From Pseudovirgaria hyperparasitica (lineage: Eukaryota), in NCBI GenBank assembly GCA_010093815.1, contig ML996588.1: a stretch of DNA of 64,000 bases; one strand, 5' to 3'. Below are positions 17,600-31,483 of this stretch, piece after piece (within the stretch, counting starts at the first letter, position 1; every line of letters begins with the position of its first letter). A program made the translations under genes and the position numbers. The notes under the pieces were generated by a model, which was not told the DNA's origin, made no database searches, and worked only from the letters and a program-made list of their open reading frames with translations.

Positions 17600-19260
17600 C
17601 CAAGTGCTTGCACATGAAGTCTGCTTCTACGGCTGGTTTGCAGTTGGTCGTTGCAAGACCGACTCAGCGGTAGACCTTCTCGGCGGTAGACTGAGCCATG
17701 GACTCTACGGAGCATCAGGGCTTAAATTCGTGGCATTGACCTCTTATGAGCCATTACTACCTCGAGAGGAAGTAAAGTGACTAGGCATTGTGGCTCGACT
17801 ACGAATGAAGCATCGTCCTCGTAGAGGCTCAATCCACATTCTATCAGTGCATCATCATCATCATCATCGACGTAGAAGTAATATTTTGATCCCTCCTCCG
17901 GTCGATTACCGGTGTGAAACCACCGTCATATTTGCTAGGGGGTAGCGATATCACATCAAAAGGGCCTCCCTGTAGCGTGATAGATGTGGAAGCCAAGGGA
18001 CCAAACTTATCAGATCCGTTCTCAGGCACAATTGTTATTTTCAGAATCTCTGCAAGAGCACGGTCATCCTGCAAATGTTCCTCCTCTGGGAAATCCAATT
18101 TGAGAAACGTGATTTCACCTTGGTAGGATGCCCATGACCACGAGGATACACGCCACTCCTTTGTATAGTGGAAGCCTTGTCGCAGAAAGGTCATCCCATC
18201 CCCAATGGCATCCTTCCGGCCGTCATTCTCGTACCTGATCACCCCATAGTACCATGCAAGTTGTGAAAATAATTCATTGTACCACAAGCCTGCGACATAG
18301 TCGCAGCCCATCAGTGGGCTGAACTCTCGGGCAATTGCCGAGATAGCTGTTACTTCGTCTTTCGCTTGAGTAAGGTTCCTGTGAGTTCGCCTGTGACCGG
18401 GTCGCGATCCAGCCGCATATAAACCTCAACTGTAGTAATCCAAATTCGAAGGCCTTCTAGAGATATGTTCCGCGACGCATTAGCGTCGCTCGAAGCACCA
18501 AGTCTCCCTAACTCAATGAAAGTGTCGAAGCGAGTCTTTGCGGCCCGTACGTAATTATCACGCCCCTGAAACCGACGAGCCATCTCTATCACTGTGGCCT
18601 GACCACATTTCCATCGCAATAGTGAATTTGTAAAGTTAAGGATTCTTGGAGCGAGCAATCTCTGGATTCTGAATAAACCTCGGTAGGTTATGCGATGATT
18701 CGAAGTGAAGATAGCATACCTCCTGAAATACCAACCTCGCTTATTCAGTGGCTGATAATCAAGGCTAGGAGGATCATACATGAGATCCTTCCTTCTTCCA
18801 TGGTGTATACCATGGACTTTTGCGCAAGGGCCTATTGCTTCCTCGGTCTTCCCTCGAGGCACAGAAGGTCTCGGTCCGACCGTATTGATAGCATCGATGA
18901 ATTTTGGAAACTGGTTCAGTGATGGTGGTTCCTTCTTCCACTGGTCCGAAACTTCAACACCGGAGAGACTAATTTGAGAGCCCTTTAGACCCCATCGATG
19001 GGATAAAGTAGCATAACATACGCCTTCTGGGATATCGTCCCCCGTGACCAGTGATATGGTGTCAGAGCCAGCATGCAGATATAGCAGTCGGCTAGGTCGA
19101 AATGCTCTCTCCAGAGAATTGCGACAAGGCGTCCACACTTTTCGTGCTTGTTACGACAAGGTATTGAGTCAATATTTTGCCAGTACCATACACTCCTCTG
19201 ATCCGGTGGAGCGATTCGTGTAATAGGGCGCTGGCCCACTTACATCACCTTAAAAAAACA
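17600..19260 (-). pseudogene. Degenerate heterokaryon-incompatibility (HET domain) gene
   Basis: HET-protein landmarks occur across several frames: CRNKHEKC, RPSRLL, YATLSHRWG, PLNKRGW..(Q)E|RLLAPRIL, AISAIA..YVAGLW, SWSWAS, VYR*VGL (stop at 17664-17666). The central LWIDSLCIIQ motif is absent and there are frameshifts. Confidence 0.8.
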
Positions 19261-20289: not shown

Positions 20290-20665
20290 TCCGTTCTTCG
20301 CGCAAATTCTAAGTGTTCCATAAGCTTGTCTTATGCTCCGGAACGAGACAATGCGACGTACTACTACTATACAGGGTTCGATGACGATTCTTCTAAGAGC
20401 TGACGCTTATGCATATTGATAAAATAGACTGAACTAGACTTCGGCGTATGCAATCAGATGTAATTAGTCACTTTAAAAGTATAGAGTAAACTTGTAATCT
20501 ATACTAAGGGATTCGAACACTATTAACATCAGAGAGTAAGAATACTTCTATTAAGACATGTAGTTTTCTAGGCAATCTCACTATAGTATATGCATGTATA
20601 TAATATATTAGTAGTAATTACTAGACATGCTTCTTATGCACCTCTACTCGACTATATTCTAATGA
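20290..20665. other. AT-rich, TpA-enriched RIP-like degenerate segment
   Basis: Abrupt drop in GC with dense TA/TAG/CTA (e.g. gtatataatatattagtagtaattactag). No ORF. Confidence 0.6.
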
Positions 20666-20814
20666 ACATCCAGGGGGTCGAGAAATTCACATGATTGATG
20701 CATATTCATGGACCAATGGGACCATCTACAAACACTGGTACGCCACAGCACCGTGTCCAACCTATACAGGTGGACATCTACAAACACGAGACCAAAGCTA
20801 TCTTTCCAACTCTA

Positions 20815-22997
20815 CTATGATCCATTCGCAATTTCCACAACCCGATCTGCAGCCTCATCAAACCGATCAAACGCCTCCAACTTCAACCCACTCTCAGCAA
20901 TTATCCGCTGCCCCTCCTGCTCGTTCGTCCCCTTGATGCGCACCACCACCGGAATGCCCTTTTCCTGCAATCCCAACTCTTTGAACGCAAGCAATATGCC
21001 ATTAGCAATCATGTCGCCCAGCGTCAGGCCGCCGAAGATATTGACAAAGATCACCTTGACGCGGTCGTCGCGCAGGATCAGGTTGAAGGACTGCTTGACC
21101 GTCTCGGAGGTGGCCTTGCCGCCGGTGTCGAGGAAGTTGGCACTCTTGCCGCCATGGCTGTACAGTGCGTCGACGGTGTTCATGGCGAGGCCGGCGCCGT
21201 TGACGAGCGTGCCGATGTTGTGGGTGCGGTCGGATGAGGCGCCGAGCTTAACGTAGACAATGCCGTCCTTTTCGGCTTCGAGCTCGGCGGGGTCGACGGC
21301 GTCTCTGTCTCGAAGTGCGTGTATCTCTTGTTGGCGCTTCGCAGACTTGGGGGCGGAGTCGTCGAACATGAAGGACGGGTTGAAGATTTTGAGGGTGTCG
21401 GATTGGGTGTCGACAGAAACTGAGACGGTCAGGTCGATGGCTTCGGTGGCGGTGTACATCGTAGACAGGGTTTTGATGAGCTTATATGCTTGGCTTTTGG
21501 CGGCAGGGGGTGCGGCGTCGAGCTGTAGATGGGCGATGGCTTCTTCGATTAGAGTTTTGGAGGGTCCCTGGTGGTAATTGTAGGGGAAGCGCTTAGAGCG
21601 CTTTTCGAAGGTTGACATATCGGTAGAAGGAGAGACGAGGATTGACGGGGAGCGAGCAGAACGATCGACTGTGATGGAGAGGAAGCGTGCATCAGAATCG
21701 GAAGGGGTCGAGGAAGTGTTGATACCTTGTTTATTGAGGAGGTCTGAGGCTTGTTGAGCAGAGATGTTAAGAGATCGGCGCTGTATTGTGTGATTCACGG
21801 AAGAACTCGGAGGAGTCATGCGTAGTCTATTAATCATACGTGAAGTATGATATCCTCGCTTTTGAGAAGGCGTTGCTTTATCGGTCTGTTGGTGTCAGAA
21901 GGGATCGTGATCGCACGTTGCTGATGCTTACTATGTATTGCTCTCGCCCGCTCTGCTTCATGAGAGTCTTCATGAGACTGCCGAGCTTTGTAGGATGGTC
22001 TACAACAGGCACGCCCACATTCTTCAATATCTCGACCTTCTCATGCGCTAGTTTGTCTCCTGGTAGTGCAAAGGCGCCCGCATGGCCCATGATCGTACCC
22101 TGCCTCGCATGTACACCACCAATCACAGCCGCGATGGGCTTAGGATTCTTCACACGCTTCTTGTAGTCTGCGATCCACTCTGCAGCATCAGTTTCGGTTC
22201 TACCCCCTATCTCACCACACATTATGATTGCATGCGTGTCCGGATCAGTCTCAAAAGCCGTCAAAGCTTCGACAAAGTTGGTGCCAGCAACGATGTCTCC
22301 ACCCATACCGATCACTGTGCTCTGTCCTAGTCCAGCACTTGTGAGAGCACCGACTGTCTCGTAGCTTAAAGTGCCAGACTTCGCGATGATACCCACGTGA
22401 CCAGGTGCGAAACACGGCAGAGGCTGGAACCCGATCCGGCATCGACCAATAGCCGAGATGATTCCAGGAGCATTTGCACCCACCAGTCTCGATTTGGATT
22501 GTGTTTGTAGGATCGAGGATATCTTAACGGTATATTAGAGAAGACGACTAGAGAGACAGACACTGCTACAAGCTTACTCTCAGAATGTCGTGAAGTGGGA
22601 TGTGTTCGGCTACAGCTACAATGAGGGGGATTTCGGCCTCGATGGCCTCCTCTATAGCAGGAGCGGCCTGTCCAGCGGCCACGTAGATGGCTGTGGCATC
22701 AGGATTGAGCTTCTCCTTCGCTGCTCTCACGCTTGGTAGCACGGGTAGACCCAAATGTTCACTTTCAGTGTTTGGTTTCACACCACCCACAATGTTGGTC
22801 CCCCACTCGATGGAGGCTTTCGCATTCATGGTAGCCTGCTTTCCTGTGAATCCCTGAAACATGACACGCGTGTGGGCGCCAATCTGGAGGTTCTTGATCG
22901 TGTCCGCATAGTTGTCACGTGAATAAGTCACAGAGAAGCTCCGCCGTGCCAGAGACTTGGGCACGACGGACTTTTGTGAAGCTCTCAAGAGTAACAT
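20815..22997 (-). CDS. Succinyl-CoA synthetase-like alpha-beta fusion protein (~693 aa), mitochondrial-type N-terminus
   Basis: Exons 22997-22578, 22522-21932 and 21885-20815 join in one frame. Alpha motifs: QGFTGKQAT, VGGV, SGTLSYE, GQS..IGMGGD, GEIGG, MGHAGA. Beta motifs: NIGTLVNGAGLAM, ANFLDTGG, VNIFGG, VVVRIKGTN. Confidence 0.88.
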
Positions 22998-23967
22998 TGC
23001 GATTGGTTACCACAAAGGCATTCGAGGACGTATAGTACGAACGAGAGCTCAATTGCGGGAGAGGGGATCTATGGAAGGCAACAGAAACTGTGGCAAAGGA
23101 ACAAAAAGGAATCTAAAGAGGTATGAAAGCTTTACATGCAATGGTGAAATCATTTCCATCATTGAAGCCGGACGCCACGCATTCTTGTAGTTCCAGCTCG
23201 GCCGGGAATACCAAGAGTTGGGCAGGGCTACGGGAATAAGCGCACAGAGCATTGCTCGAAGAGAAGGCCGACCTCGGAATGCAAAGGATATCCGTGACGG
23301 CTGCCGATACTGCGAATAAGTATGTTCCGTGTGCTATGCAAGACTATACCCGCCTCTGCTGGGACACAATGCATGGAATACTAATTATTATTGTCAAAGC
23401 CGAAATGACGTGTGCCGGAAATCGGCTGTTATGTCTAGCTGCCCCTCCGAAAACCACGGCATTCAGAGGCACAACGTTCTGACACATGCGCAAGAGCTCC
23501 TGGCTTCCAAGCTGTTGTTGTTAGTATAACCATGAAACACGCTACAAACAATTTATAAGATTATTGAACTTTAGTCTAGACGATGGTATATCGCTTTGAA
23601 TATAATCTTACTAATATTATACTAACATAGAGGTCAATTGGCACTCTAATAACGAGACATACTGTGTTGGTGGCTCCGAGGCTCAAGACATGGAAAAGAC
23701 CAGGCATCCAGGCCCCAATACCACCGCCAAGACCACGGCCCCACTTGCGGAAAGCTTAACCCCACAATCTCAAAGCTGACGTCGGAAAACAATACTGGTG
23801 CAGTCTAGTCCACAGGCTGTGAGCAATACGATCCTCACAACTTCCTCCCTCTCAGCAGTATCTCTACCCTCCTGCATCCTCCACAGCATCAACCACTACA
23901 CCTCTCTATTCCTTCACAACAAACAGAATAACCTCCCATTCCAACGCCATCCCTTCCACCTCCCACA

Positions 23968-24708
23968 ATGCCGTCGTCCACTCCACACCCATCTGGTAAT
24001 GAGTTCCACCTCCATCTCCACTCCTATTCCCATCCCAATTCCCCCCAAATATACTCCTCCCTCCCACTCATATACATCCACATTCCTAACCAAAAATCTC
24101 CTACAGAACTAACAACCTCCCTCTCCGCCCTCTCCATCACCACAAAACCCACCTCGCAAAAGACCGCCCTGGTGGCAGACTCCTGGGAAGACGAGGCCGA
24201 CGACGACGACGACAACGACGATGCCTCCTCCTCCTCCTCCTCACTGCCATCCACACCCACTGCATCCACAGCACCATCCAAATCCACATCCACAAACCCA
24301 ACAACGCGCCAAAAACCCACCCAACCCACTCCATCCGCCCCGCCACCAACCCCCTCCTCACCAAACCATCCCTCCTCATCACCATCCTCCTTCTCCTCCT
24401 CATTCCCAACTGCCCCCTTCTCCTCTTCAACCTACCAATACCCCCTCTCCCCTTCTCACACCGCCAGCAATACAACCCCGCAGGCACAACAACCACCAAC
24501 CCGCCGCCCAGACAAAACAACAAGCACAGCCTCACGCATGATTGCCGCAGGCCTGGGCATGCGCGCACCCGTGCGCACGGCCGAGCAAAAGGCATACGAC
24601 GATGCAGAGCGCAAGGTGTTACGCGAAAAGAGGGCTAGGGAGCGCGAGGAGGAGAAGAGGAAGGAGGCGGAGAGGGAGAGGGCGCGTGTGGCGGTTTGGG
24701 AGGATTGA
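23968..24708 (+). CDS. Low-complexity Ser/Pro/Thr-rich protein with SUZ-C-like motif and charged C-terminal coil
   Basis: VADSWEDE motif, RRPDKTTSTASRMIAAGLG (SUZ-C-like), E/R/K-rich tail ending VWED. The N-terminal start/splicing is uncertain. Confidence 0.7.
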   Translation: MPSSTPHPSGNEFHLHLHSYSHPNSPQIYSSLPLIYIHIPNQKSPTELTTSLSALSITTKPTSQKTALVADSWEDEADDDDDNDDASSSSSSLPSTPTASTAPSKSTSTNPTTRQKPTQPTPSAPPPTPSSPNHPSSSPSSFSSSFPTAPFSSSTYQYPLSPSHTASNTTPQAQQPPTRRPDKTTSTASRMIAAGLGMRAPVRTAEQKAYDDAERKVLREKRAREREEEKRKEAERERARVAVWED

Positions 24709-28592: not shown

Positions 28593-31483
28593 TCTCTGTT
28601 TAGCTCTTCTAGCTCCTTTAGCTCCCCTGGCTTCCCGTCGGCTGCAATATCCATTTCCCCCTCTTTATTGTCTGCGTCATGTCCGTCATTTTCTGTGTCC
28701 ACATCCGGGCTTACATCGTCCTTTGACTTCCCCTGCGTAGGAACCATCATCGATCGCACTTCTGATTCAATACCAAAAGCCCGCGCAATCGCTAACTGTA
28801 CATGATACATAGTACTTGTCTGGGTGGTAAGACTAGCCATGACGTAGAGGACGTTGCCAAGCACGCGGCAGTGAATTGGTTGTCTGATGGAGCGTTCAAG
28901 ATCATTCTGAAGCGTAACAGCTGCTCTAGATGAATACCCTGCCACTAATATTAGCTGCAATTCCACTCTGTTCTTTCCGACACATGATACTTACCAGATC
29001 CCTCGGGGTCAGTGATTTTTATTGCAAGCACAGTTCCCAAAGCCACTACACTTGAAACTCTTTCTTGTCGAGAGAGAAGCTTCACAAATTCAAGGTGCCA
29101 ATGACTCCAGACCCGTTCATATGGAAGACGACTGACGATTAAGTTATTGACTCTGTCTGGCTCCGACGGTATCGCACGTGCAGCTCGCGCCCAGGAGAGC
29201 TTGAATAACTTGGTGGCCCTTTGCTGCTGAATATCGTTCATCATCCACAAAGCCTTCTTAGCTACAGTGCATCCCATCGCATGTGCTGTGTAACTATGTC
29301 CGTGGAGGAGCGCATCGGACTTTTCGTCGCCCAAGAAAGCCTCAAAGATGCTATTGGATGCAAGCGTCAAGCAAAGCGGAAGAAGGCCACCGGTAAGCAA
29401 CTTGGCATGTACAGAAATGTCGGGTTTCACCCCCAGGAAACTTGCGGCGCTGAATCGTCCCAGACGGTACAGTCCTGTGAAAACCTCATCGAACACAACA
29501 GGCAAGCCCTGCCAGGCATATGGATCCCGGAAAGCCGATTGCAACTCTTGTTTCCCAAAGTTGCGTCGCCGCACTGCATTAACCAGGGCACTCTGAAATA
29601 GAGGATCTCTGTTACATGACTAGTTAGCATTTTACTTGACTTTAGTCTAAAGGCTGGGACAGGTCATTTCTTACGCGAATATCATTCCTCCAGCACCAAG
29701 CAAGACTGGTTCCATGACCAGGGCTCCGAACTTTCTTCCTTTTTCATTCACCTCCTCATCAAGCACTTTGTCAATGTATTTCTCATACACTGCTGGATCT
29801 CTTGATGCAAAAACTTGGTTTAAGTCGTCGAAAGTCTCTCCAGGCCCGAATTCAGCCTCCATACCCTTTGGTGGGCTGACTACCCATTTGCCGTCTTTCA
29901 TACCAACCGAAGGATAGTCGAACCAGTAGCCACGACCTCGATACCATTCAGTCTTTGTGTTGAAAACTGAGGGCTCTGAACAGTCCATTGCACCAATTGT
30001 ATCTCCATGGTAGGATCCTTTGAGTCCTATAATTTCAATGGAGTCTTGTTGTCCCGTAAACCCGTACCTCTTCACTGCTGCTTTCAGTGCCATCTTGATG
30101 CCTACTTCGATACCGGTGCTCCCGTTGTCTGTAAAGAATACCTTCTGCAGACGGGCATTCTCTAGTCTCTCCAAAAAGGTCTCCGCTAGTTCGAGTGCAG
30201 GCTCATGAATCGCACCAGCAAACATAACATGTCCATATCGACCAGCTGCATACGCCGCTGCTAGAGATAAAGCTGGATTGCTATAAAGCAATTAGTGCCA
30301 GGTCAGATACATGTTCACGGATCTTAACATACCCATGTCCAAGGCCTTGGGTCCACCAAGATGCTGAACCATCGAAAGTACGTGATACCTTTTCTGCTGG
30401 CTTTGTTAGAGTAAAGTAGTCGCCGTAAGCTGAGTCAATTGGAAGCAGGTCAGCGGCCTCAGACTCCTTGTGTTGCATGAAGGGATGCCATATGGAACTA
30501 GCAGCTCGTGACCTTAAAGATGATGCAGATGTTCTGAACGCGTCCTTATCACACAGAAGGAGCTCCGTAAAGATCTCATGAACATGGGTACCCTTTCTCA
30601 TTATCTGATTGTAATAGTCATCCATTATGGCAGCGTCGCGGCTTGTGTCTTGTTCCTGCGGCGGAATCGGCGGAAGTACAATGATGTTTCGAGCCAATTG
30701 AGAATATCCGTATAAATTCAGGTATGTCCTCACGTCTCGGTCGTTCTGGTGAGGTTCATTTCCGAAGAACACCAGCTGTTCGACATCGTATCCGCGCAAG
30801 GTCAGTGATTCAAACGCAGACACGGTGCTTGACACACCACCTAGTTTTGAATCACCCACAAGGACAATCGGCAATCGGAAAGAACGATAGAAGTCAGCCT
30901 GGGCTCTACCGCTTGGAAGAGGAGACATAACCCCTCCAAATGTTTCAACTATAGAGTAACTGCCAGGGCGATTCAGATCATCAGCAAGGATTTTCAACAT
31001 TTTGGAATCGTCCAGCTCCCTAAAGCCAGTACTGTAATCCTAGAGAAATGTTACCCAATTGTGTCCGATGTGACTGAGAACAGACGTACCGCATTTCGTG
31101 CCGCATTTCGCTCCCACTCTGCAGCACGGGTAGGGCTCCATGGCTGACTGTACTTCTGGTAGCACTTGACCATAACATTATTTGCGTGTCTTTTGATGTG
31201 GCTTGGGGCGGTTAGCATACTCCAATCAACAAATGACCGCTTAATTAGGGGAGACATACACGTGGTCTAACGTTTGTTCAGGACCGGTGGCAACAGGTTT
31301 GATGTACCGAATACTTGTGCCTTCCGGTGGGTCAACTTTGCAGAAGAGTGATGATACGATTGTTTTGCCGACGTCAGTATTGGCGCCAAATATCTGTATA
31401 GCTCTGCCATTGGGAGTGCGAATACTGGTCTTGAGAGGCAGTGTCCATTTTCGATTAAGCCCTTTGCGTATGACGGGCTTCAT
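28586..31483 (-). CDS. bioDA: Bifunctional dethiobiotin synthetase / DAPA aminotransferase (biotin synthesis)
   Basis: Multi-exon. BioD part: IFGANTDVGKT, YIKPVATG, VETFGGVMSP, GDSKLGGVS. BioA part: IWHPFMQH, FDGSASWWTQGLGH, DNGSTG, SYHGDTIGAMD, FDEVFTGLYRLG, PLP lysine AKLLTGG, LHGHSYTAH. Confidence 0.93.

What the first reader, a model, noticed from the sequence alone, without database searches (positions are those of the whole stretch)
20815..22997. Succinyl-CoA synthetase alpha-beta polyprotein with an internal mitochondrial presequence-like linker
Seen: a 46-nt intron (21931-21886, GTAAGC..CTGAC..CAG) removes the alpha stop and joins alpha in frame to the beta-like ORF (16 codons before ATG 21837). 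The linker KATPSQKRGYHTSRMINRLRMTPPSSSVNHTIQRRSL is Arg/Ser/Thr-rich and acid-free, with R-2/R-3-type sites (KRGY|HTS, RRSL). It is followed by NISAQQASDLLNKQGI, which resembles the mature beta N-terminus. The protein N-terminus (MLLLRASQKSVVPKSLARRSFS) also looks like a presequence. Established: MPP cleaves tandem precursors such as Arg5,6/ARG-6 internally. Inference: one precursor is imported and cut into stoichiometric alpha and beta chains. Intron retention would give alpha alone.
Basis: partly seen in the sequence, partly recalled or inferred. Interest (0 to 1): 0.72.

Follow-up and report, generated by a model that had tools for sequence, protein, structure and literature searches.

The report
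Nucleotide-free SCS-like mitochondrial polyprotein
A gene found across filamentous fungi joins the two subunits of a spare, succinyl-CoA-synthetase-like enzyme through a leftover mitochondrial signal that is probably cut out after import, and the enzyme has lost its ATP/GTP site, so it must do different chemistry from the Krebs-cycle enzyme.

Summary
Observation confirmed. The 46-nt intron and a second 55-nt intron are skipped exactly in transcript-like contigs (one sample), giving one 693-aa alpha-beta chain identical to an NCBI model. The fusion is widespread in filamentous ascomycetes. Its linker has two MPP-type sites, R-x|[YFM]-H-T and R-x|L-x-[LI], around a variable, Arg-rich, acid-poor, disordered spacer. 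Site 1 is in 118 of 119 orthologs and 115 of 118 in a second set (shuffles about 8). Site 2 matches the cleavage-site motif of stand-alone beta precursors. This is the Atp25 design, so internal cleavage is likely (about 0.85) but not shown. (1) It is not the Krebs-cycle SCS: canonical alpha and beta genes exist elsewhere in the genome, and this beta half lacks about 85 residues of the ATP-grasp fold and the nucleotide-site ligands, while the phospho-His site is intact. Best guess: a nucleotide-free phosphohistidine CoA transferase or hydrolase. (2) An 'alpha alone by intron retention' switch is not supported. Nine literature searches found no description. The scan noted the same gene in two other genomes.

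The parts
20641..23168 (-). Extent of the spliced transcript-like contig (UTRs included)
   Evidence: run X1 (X2: 20669-23103)
22578..22997 (-). Exon 1: N-terminal presequence and alpha CoA-binding domain
   Evidence: (PF02629)
22914..22997 (-). Predicted N-terminal presequence, aa 1-20 (R19-S20|F21-S22); possible further octapeptide removal to about aa 28
   Evidence: F21 in 105 and S22 in 99 of 119 orthologs; pLDDT <50 for aa 1-26; cleavage inferred
22523..22577 (-).
21932..22522 (-). Exon 2: alpha domain 2 with E244 (E208-alpha equivalent) and the phospho-His loop
22082..22084 (-). Codon of catalytic His287 (GHAG motif)
   Evidence: H in 117 of 119 and 118 of 118 orthologs; position
21886..21931 (-). 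Intron 2 (46 nt, phase 0) at the alpha/linker junction
20815..21885 (-). Exon 3: linker, truncated beta subunit, stop codon (20817-20815)
21844..21858 (-). Predicted MPP site 1, R347-G348|Y349-H350-T351
   Evidence: 118 of 119 and 115 of 118 orthologs match the pattern; shuffled linkers about 8
21772..21852 (-). Internal presequence-like peptide (aa 349-375), predicted to be excised
   Evidence: In orthologs Arg 19-22%, Asp+Glu 1.4-2.2%, variable length and sequence; pLDDT <50 for aa 343-373
21763..21777 (-). Predicted MPP site 2, R374-S375|L376, the ancestral beta-precursor site
   Evidence: R374 in 117 of 119 and 118 of 118; same motif at the presequence end of stand-alone betas P0402, P0382, P0377 and of this genome's canonical beta
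21690..21726 (-). Approximate place of the ~85-residue deletion of the ATP-grasp lid in the beta half
   Evidence: L376 to R412 spans 33-50 aa in 237 orthologs against 122-127 aa in full-length betas P0377 and P0402; PDB betas align only from about residue 83-113 on
20818..21771 (-). Predicted mature beta' chain (aa 376-693, about 34 kDa): ATP-grasp remnant plus intact C-terminal CoA-ligase domain

Best explanation
The gene encodes a second, fungal SCS-like enzyme made as one mitochondrial precursor: presequence - alpha' - internal presequence - beta'. SHOWN: one spliced 693-aa frame, conserved domain order, two conserved R-2-type motifs around a disordered basic spacer, loss of the beta nucleotide site, retention of the alpha His287/Glu244 site and the beta NGAGL loop. 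INFERRED (about 0.85): after import MPP cuts at the N-terminus, at R347-G348|Y349 and at R374-S375|L376, dropping a ~27-residue peptide and releasing two ~34-kDa chains that assemble 1:1. The linker is the retained presequence of an ancestral stand-alone beta gene. INFERRED (about 0.8): the dimer cannot make or use ATP/GTP by itself and runs only the half-reactions at the alpha-beta interface (acyl-CoA + Pi to acyl-phosphate to phospho-His + acid). The most likely net activity (about 0.4 on its own) is CoA transfer between two carboxylic acids through phospho-His. The second acid is probably not succinate, given family-invariant changes in pocket motifs (beta DTGGKA and GGLT against canonical DVGGGA and GGIV; alpha AEHIP, FQP, AKSG against TEGIP, IMP, SRSG).
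For: Splicing. Motif conservation in two sets, with shuffles and an unalignable spacer between the sites as controls. The site-1 pattern occurs 6 times in 67,801 aa of the folded parts. Spacer composition matches the N-terminal 25 aa (Arg 19% vs 15%, Asp+Glu 1.4% vs 1.1%; folded parts 11.7%). AlphaFold disorder falls on aa 1-26 and 343-373 only. P0247 has shrunk the spacer to a few residues but keeps both motifs. Two distinct reverse-order beta-alpha fusions (P0254, P0262) group apart from the alpha-beta family in the beta tree and carry R-x|F-S motifs before alpha. This genome's Arg5,6 ortholog has a linker of the same design. Atp25 loses an internal MTS by two MPP cuts (PMC5063612, section read). 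Separate alpha' and beta' chains are predicted to dock: score 0.92, best control 0.00, runs agree in at least 96% of contacts, partner pLDDT at least 91; the mark was reached by 51 of 78 solved and 2 of 108 mismatched pairs, and solved SCS structures make a pass by likeness expected. Loss of the nucleotide site. PF08442 is found only at the canonical beta locus in this genome. Distinct paralog clades.
Against: No protein-level evidence of cleavage, import or activity. The uncut chain also models well (pTM 0.86), so cutting is not sterically required. The spacer is no more amphipathic than its shuffles (moment 0.51 vs 0.54-0.55), so it may be only a cleavage signal, not an import signal. Orthologs are related, so shuffle counts are not probabilities. 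Some divergent members lack the motifs (P0252, P0246, and the beta-alpha fusion P0393 with an acidic linker). The E197-beta column is still Glu in 31 of 119 and 58 of 118 orthologs. No substrate clue came from neighbouring genes. Trees are quick trees with modest support.
Confidence: 0.7

Rival explanations
1. The precursor loses only its N-terminal presequence and works as one ~72-kDa chain; the linker is a relic of the beta presequence.
For: The single chain models with pTM 0.86. The spacer is not amphipathic beyond chance. Fused forms without such motifs exist (P0393, P0252).
Against: A relic would decay, yet R347, H350, T351 and R374 stay almost invariant while the residues between them are unalignable. 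They lie outside both folded domains. Both motifs survive loss of the spacer in P0247.
Confidence: 0.12
2. It is cleaved as proposed, but the net reaction is phosphate-dependent acyl-CoA hydrolysis or acyl-phosphate release: an uncoupled succinyl-CoA drain or CoA-recycling valve.
For: Same anatomy: intact His site, no nucleotide site. Without an acceptor, phospho-His or acyl-phosphate could discharge to water (inference from established SCS chemistry).
Against: Simple thioesterases would do this without keeping the whole phospho-His apparatus invariant. Family-specific pocket residues suggest a defined second substrate.
Confidence: 0.25
3. Cleavage frees the chains to act with other proteins: alpha' pairs with the canonical beta (restoring a ligase of altered specificity), phospho-His is passed to an outside acceptor such as nucleoside-diphosphate kinase, or beta' sequesters canonical alpha as a regulator.
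For: Cleavage makes exchange possible, and canonical subunits are encoded in the same genome. An SCS-NDPK link is discussed in PMC10342173 (passages).
Against: The beta' C-terminal domain has many invariant family-specific residues matched by family-specific alpha' residues, which fits a dedicated pair. 1:1 synthesis favours the cognate dimer.
Confidence: 0.15
4. It is an ordinary nucleotide-using succinyl-CoA synthetase isoform made as a polyprotein, with intron retention giving alpha alone.
For: Both halves are closest to SCS by sequence and fold. Retention does end the frame at 354 aa.
Against: The lid with the GRGK loop is deleted and the N199 and D213 equivalents are lost. No retained form was laid. 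The junction is one open frame in many orthologs.
Confidence: 0.05

Closest known systems
S. cerevisiae Arg5,6 / N. crassa arg-6 composite precursor (PMC8734313)
   Same: One mitochondrial precursor for two proteins that form a complex; internal presequence-like linker with R-2 motifs; conserved across fungi.
   Different: Unrelated enzymes; cleavage there is shown, here inferred. This family was seen in filamentous ascomycetes and Mycena, and is not in that paper's list of composite precursors.
S. cerevisiae Atp25 (PMC5063612)
   Same: An internal MTS is removed by two MPP cuts, three cuts in all.
   Different: Atp25's products are functionally unrelated; here they are the two subunits of one enzyme. 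Import activity of this linker is untested and it is not detectably amphipathic.
Canonical succinyl-CoA synthetase (E. coli SucCD, PDB 1JKJ; human SUCLG1-SUCLA2, PDB 6G4Q; this genome's L001 and L002)
   Same: Fold (alpha rmsd about 1.6 A), CoA-binding domain, phospho-His, E208-alpha equivalent, beta NGAGL loop, predicted alpha-beta interface.
   Different: Single gene; about 85 residues of the beta ATP-grasp deleted; E197/N199/D213 equivalents not conserved; changed pocket motifs; separate clades.
Stand-alone second fungal beta paralogs (P0377 Rhizodiscina, P0382 Aspergillus sclerotioniger, P0402 Saitoella; uncharacterised database proteins)
   Same: Group with the fusion's beta against canonical and bacterial betas; own presequence ends in the site-2 motif.
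   Different: Not fused; ATP-grasp complete (P0377) or partly eroded (P0402 has lost the GRGK motif; P0382 is shortened).
ATP-citrate lyase and other fused SCS-superfamily ligases
   Same: SCS-type domains, phospho-His; fused forms exist.
   Different: They keep the ATP-grasp domain; ACL-type fusions have alpha after beta and are not known to be cut by MPP (recalled).

Membership tests
MPP-cleaved composite mitochondrial precursors (Arg5,6/Atp25 type) | Two proteins encoded in one open frame on one mRNA | tested here: met
MPP-cleaved composite mitochondrial precursors (Arg5,6/Atp25 type) | N-terminal presequence (basic, acid-free, disordered, R-x|F-S end) | tested here: met
   Composition; columns; disorder. 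No TargetP or MitoFates available.
MPP-cleaved composite mitochondrial precursors (Arg5,6/Atp25 type) | Conserved internal R-2 motif(s) with hydrophobic P1' in a presequence-like linker | tested here: met
   118 of 119 and 115 of 118 for site 1; 117 of 119 and 118 of 118 for site 2
MPP-cleaved composite mitochondrial precursors (Arg5,6/Atp25 type) | Linker forms an amphipathic helix able to drive import | tested here: inconclusive
   Hydrophobic moment not above shuffles (0.51 vs 0.54-0.55); the N-terminal presequences are only slightly above theirs (0.56-0.62 vs 0.53-0.55), so the measure is weak
MPP-cleaved composite mitochondrial precursors (Arg5,6/Atp25 type) | Matrix import and internal cleavage by MPP shown at protein level | not testable with these tools
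   Needs import assay, purified MPP or N-terminomics
Succinyl-CoA synthetase (NDP-forming) | Alpha subunit with CoA-binding domain, phospho-His and E208 equivalent | tested here: met
Succinyl-CoA synthetase (NDP-forming) | Beta C-terminal domain with NGAGL loop | tested here: met
   N566, G567, G569, L570 invariant in 237 of 237
Succinyl-CoA synthetase (NDP-forming) | Complete beta ATP-grasp fold with GRGK loop and E197/N199/D213 ligands | tested here: not met
   About 85-aa deletion; columns 490, 492, 506 variable; no PF08442 match at this locus
Succinyl-CoA synthetase (NDP-forming) | Succinate specificity | not testable with these tools
   Pocket-lining motifs differ from canonical; their role in acyl binding is recalled, not from a paper read here

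The most novel reading that the evidence does not exclude
Filamentous fungi have an undescribed mitochondrial enzyme built from the SCS scaffold that has dropped nucleotide coupling and uses phosphohistidine to move CoA between acids (a CoA-transferase mechanism unlike the known classes). It is made as a triple-cut MPP polyprotein, and the polyprotein design arose at least twice, once in each subunit order.
Probability: 0.3. Interest if true: 0.85.

Novelty: new variant of a known kind. Interest (0 to 1): 0.64.

Why it matters
Friedl et al. call Arg5,6 the only widely conserved fusion of two functionally related mitochondrial proteins known to them (PMC8734313 Discussion). This family would be a second one, with hundreds of natural variants (minimal linkers, lost motifs, reversed order, unfused relatives) that make the question 'why keep a polyprotein?' directly testable. 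Separately, hundreds of database entries named 'succinyl-CoA ligase alpha' are probably not Krebs-cycle enzymes but an orphan matrix enzyme with a conserved phospho-His site and no nucleotide site. That affects fungal metabolic models and organic-acid engineering, and could be new CoA chemistry.

Tried and rejected
Intron-retention switch: rejected as a conserved feature; rare retention cannot be excluded from contigs. Independent beta translation from ATG 21837: the Met354 column is not conserved (Arg in 81 of 119) and the contigs are continuous. Naturally split alpha'/beta' genes: the 196-627 aa search returned mostly partial metagenome gene calls, so it cannot show split forms. No run is on record as RNA; RNA status of X1/X2 is inferred from exact intron skipping. 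The metagenome scan gave one near-full family locus (L006) and one partial candidate (L008, not examined) among 80; the rest look like canonical bacterial betas, so synteny could not be studied. Neighbouring genes gave no pathway clue (22 ORFs scanned). Amphipathicity test was negative. E. coli AllF/FdrA was considered as a nucleotide-free precedent, but the passages seen in PMC11326118 do not link it to SCS, so it was not used. The careful tree did not finish; quick trees were used. A paper giving the succinate-pocket residues was not found.

Full report
1. Observation. The gene lies on the minus strand in three exons: 22997-22578, 22522-21932 and 21885-20815. Splicing both gives 693 aa; retaining the second ends the frame at 354 aa. 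Two public runs hold the stretch, neither on record as RNA. In both, one contig skips exactly these two introns and ends at UTR-like limits; no unspliced form was laid (2 of 2 runs, one sample, contigs only). The model is identical to P0001, an NCBI protein named 'succinyl-CoA ligase-like protein subunit alpha' of Pseudovirgaria hyperparasitica. So the fused gene model is already in databases, under a name that hides its beta half.

2. Distribution. The beta frame found 789 proteins of 628 aa or more among 8000 scored candidates; the best 120 were listed, nearly all about 640-760 aa with alpha and beta domains. Source names cover Dothideomycetes, Leotiomycetes, Sordariomycetes, Eurotiomycetes, Geopyxis and several Mycena species; class assignments are from my own knowledge. 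The genome also has canonical alpha (L001), canonical beta (L002) and an ATP-citrate-lyase-like gene (L005). In quick trees the fusion's alpha and beta halves fall outside the groups holding the canonical fungal, animal and bacterial subunits (SH-aLRT 95 and 100). It is a separate paralog.

3. The linker. I aligned 119 of the 120 proteins (P0020, 1548 aa, left out) and, as a second set, 118 of the 120 (the query and one repeat left out). Patterns were set on the first set; the site-2 pattern was slightly widened before the second. Site 1 (R-x|[YFLMIV]-[HQ]-small) occurs in 118 of 119 and 115 of 118, site 2 in 117 of 119 and 118 of 118, both in 116 and 115. Shuffling each linker gives site 1 in about 8 sequences (max 20 and 16). 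The pattern occurs 6 times in 67,801 aa of the folded parts. The sequences are related, so these are not probabilities. The better control is internal: R347, H350, T351, R374 and L376 are almost invariant while the residues between them vary in length (17-36 in the first set) and do not align. The spacer has 19-22% Arg and 1.4-2.2% Asp+Glu, like the N-terminal 25 residues (15%, 1.1%) and unlike the folded parts (4.8%, 11.7%). AlphaFold (mean pLDDT 87, pTM 0.86) is below 50 only at aa 1-26 and 343-373. Both sites fit the R-2 rule, Arg at -2 with a hydrophobic or aromatic residue at +1; RSY and RGY were the candidate internal sites in Arg5,6 and RSY was the one used (PMC8734313, passages).

4. 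Origin of the linker and natural experiments. Stand-alone relatives of the beta half exist (P0377, P0382, P0402). Their own presequences end in the site-2 motif (RRLHIH in P0402, RWLSIQ in P0382, RQLSIH in P0377), as does this genome's canonical beta (RNLSIH). So the linker is the retained presequence of an ancestral beta gene, and site 1 is a second site at its upstream end. This is the Atp25 design, in which an internal MTS is removed by two MPP cuts (PMC5063612, section 9). This genome's Arg5,6 ortholog shows a similar basic linker with two motif-like ends (judged by eye). P0247 (Mycena indigotica) keeps both motifs almost adjacent, without a spacer. Two distinct unnamed proteins in the reverse order (P0254 with two near-identical copies, and P0262) also have shortened ATP-grasp regions and carry R-x|F-S motifs just before alpha; they group with P0377/P0382 in the beta tree (support 90-92), which suggests an independent fusion, though the alpha tree places P0254 next to the alpha-beta family (support 80). 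Against: P0252, P0246 and the Trichosporon beta-alpha fusion P0393 show no clear motifs; the spacer is not more amphipathic than its shuffles; and the uncut chain folds well in the model. I put internal cleavage at about 0.85.

5. Intron retention. At least 72 of 120 shorter database gene calls, mostly from metagenomes, run in one open frame from the end of alpha into beta (the pattern misses some, and 48 were not scored). Locus L006 has no stop or frame change at the junction. A few calls read through what looks like an in-frame intron at the same place (P0108; P0137). An alpha-only product is therefore not a conserved feature.

6. Profiles of the family align to solved beta chains only from about residue 83-113 onward. 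From L376 to R412 there are 33-50 residues in 237 orthologs, against 122-127 in full-length P0377 and P0402: about 85 residues, including the GRGK loop, are gone. The columns matching E. coli E197, N199 and D213 are T490, S492 and N506 here and are variable across the family; Glu persists at the first in 31 of 119 and 58 of 118. E197-beta marks the nucleotide site to which phospho-His swings (PMC10342173, passages); the roles of N199, D213 and the lid are recalled. PF08442 matches only the canonical beta locus in this genome (first-look search, a lower bound). By contrast H287 (117 of 119, 118 of 118), E244 (237 of 237), S189/T191 and the beta NGAGL loop are kept. Folded as two chains with CoA, alpha' and beta' dock with the His loop (283-288) and the NGAGL loop in the interface: score 0.92, best of 3 controls 0.00, contacts agree at least 96%, partner pLDDT at least 91; 51 of 78 solved and 2 of 108 mismatched pairs reach the mark, and solved SCS structures make this pass expected by likeness.

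7. Mechanism. In SCS, acyl-CoA plus phosphate gives acyl-phosphate and then phospho-His at the alpha-beta interface; only the last step needs the ATP-grasp site (established chemistry, recalled). With that site gone, phospho-His can be discharged by a second acid plus CoA (net CoA transferase, about 0.4), by water (hydrolase, about 0.25), or by an outside acceptor or a canonical beta (about 0.15); a non-catalytic role or hidden nucleotide use makes up the rest. Invariant family-specific motifs near the pocket (beta T591-G-G-K594 and G-L624-T625; alpha E131-H132, F172-Q-P, K188) differ from canonical SCS and suggest a different acyl partner. The substrate is not identified; 22 long ORFs in the window show no cluster.

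8. Novelty. Nine searches of the paper library returned no paper on this fusion; most were seen as listings only, subscription journals are not covered, and I did not open supplements. I read passages and the Discussion of PMC8734313 (the word 'succinyl' does not occur in its main text), passages and section 9 of PMC5063612, and passages of PMC10342173 and PMC11326118. The scan's own notes report the same gene and the same reading in two other genomes; I had reached the reading before seeing them and count them as no evidence. Verdict: it works like Arg5,6/Atp25 and meets every sequence criterion testable here. It is not a member of the NDP-forming SCS family, since a defining feature was tested and not met. 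New variant of a known kind; interest 0.64.

Noticed in passing
Proteins P0254, P0391, P0392, P0262 (unnamed Logan records); P0393 (Trichosporon asahii): Reverse-order beta-alpha fusions that also have a shortened ATP-grasp region. P0254 and P0262 have MPP-like motifs before alpha; P0393 has an acidic linker without one.
   Followed up: partly
Proteins P0377, P0402, P0382: A second, stand-alone fungal SCS-beta clade showing graded erosion of the ATP-grasp: complete, GRGK motif lost, shortened.
   Followed up: partly
Proteins P0034, P0057, P0074, P0079, P0082, P0091, P0092, P0099, P0242, P0247: Several Mycena (basidiomycete) species carry the ascomycete-type alpha-beta fusion; P0034 nests among Dothideomycetes in quick trees (support 81-95). 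Possible horizontal transfer; contamination not excluded. Entries labelled Quercus and Carpinus (P0011, P0017, P0072) are probably fungal contamination.
   Followed up: partly
L088:1-2466 (-), G000:C20: Arg5,6/arg-6 ortholog with a basic, acid-free internal linker bounded by motif-like ends; used as an in-genome comparison.
   Followed up: partly
window 17844-19150 (-): Two ORFs that look by eye like a broken HET-domain gene (recalled motif); no Pfam match for either at E 0.001, nor for the 18353-19150 frame at 0.01.
   Followed up: no
window 23932-24708 (+): Low-complexity ORF facing away from the fusion gene, about 0.9 kb upstream; its C-terminus resembles a SUZ-C domain (recalled); no Pfam match.
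   Followed up: no
window 30281-31039 (-): AAA_26 match, probably part of a dethiobiotin-synthetase-type gene (label recalled).
   Followed up: no
Proteins P0401, P0277 and other ~700-aa hits: Prokaryote-type beta-alpha SCS fusions; P0401 has an intact ATP-grasp and no presequence-like linker.
   Followed up: no
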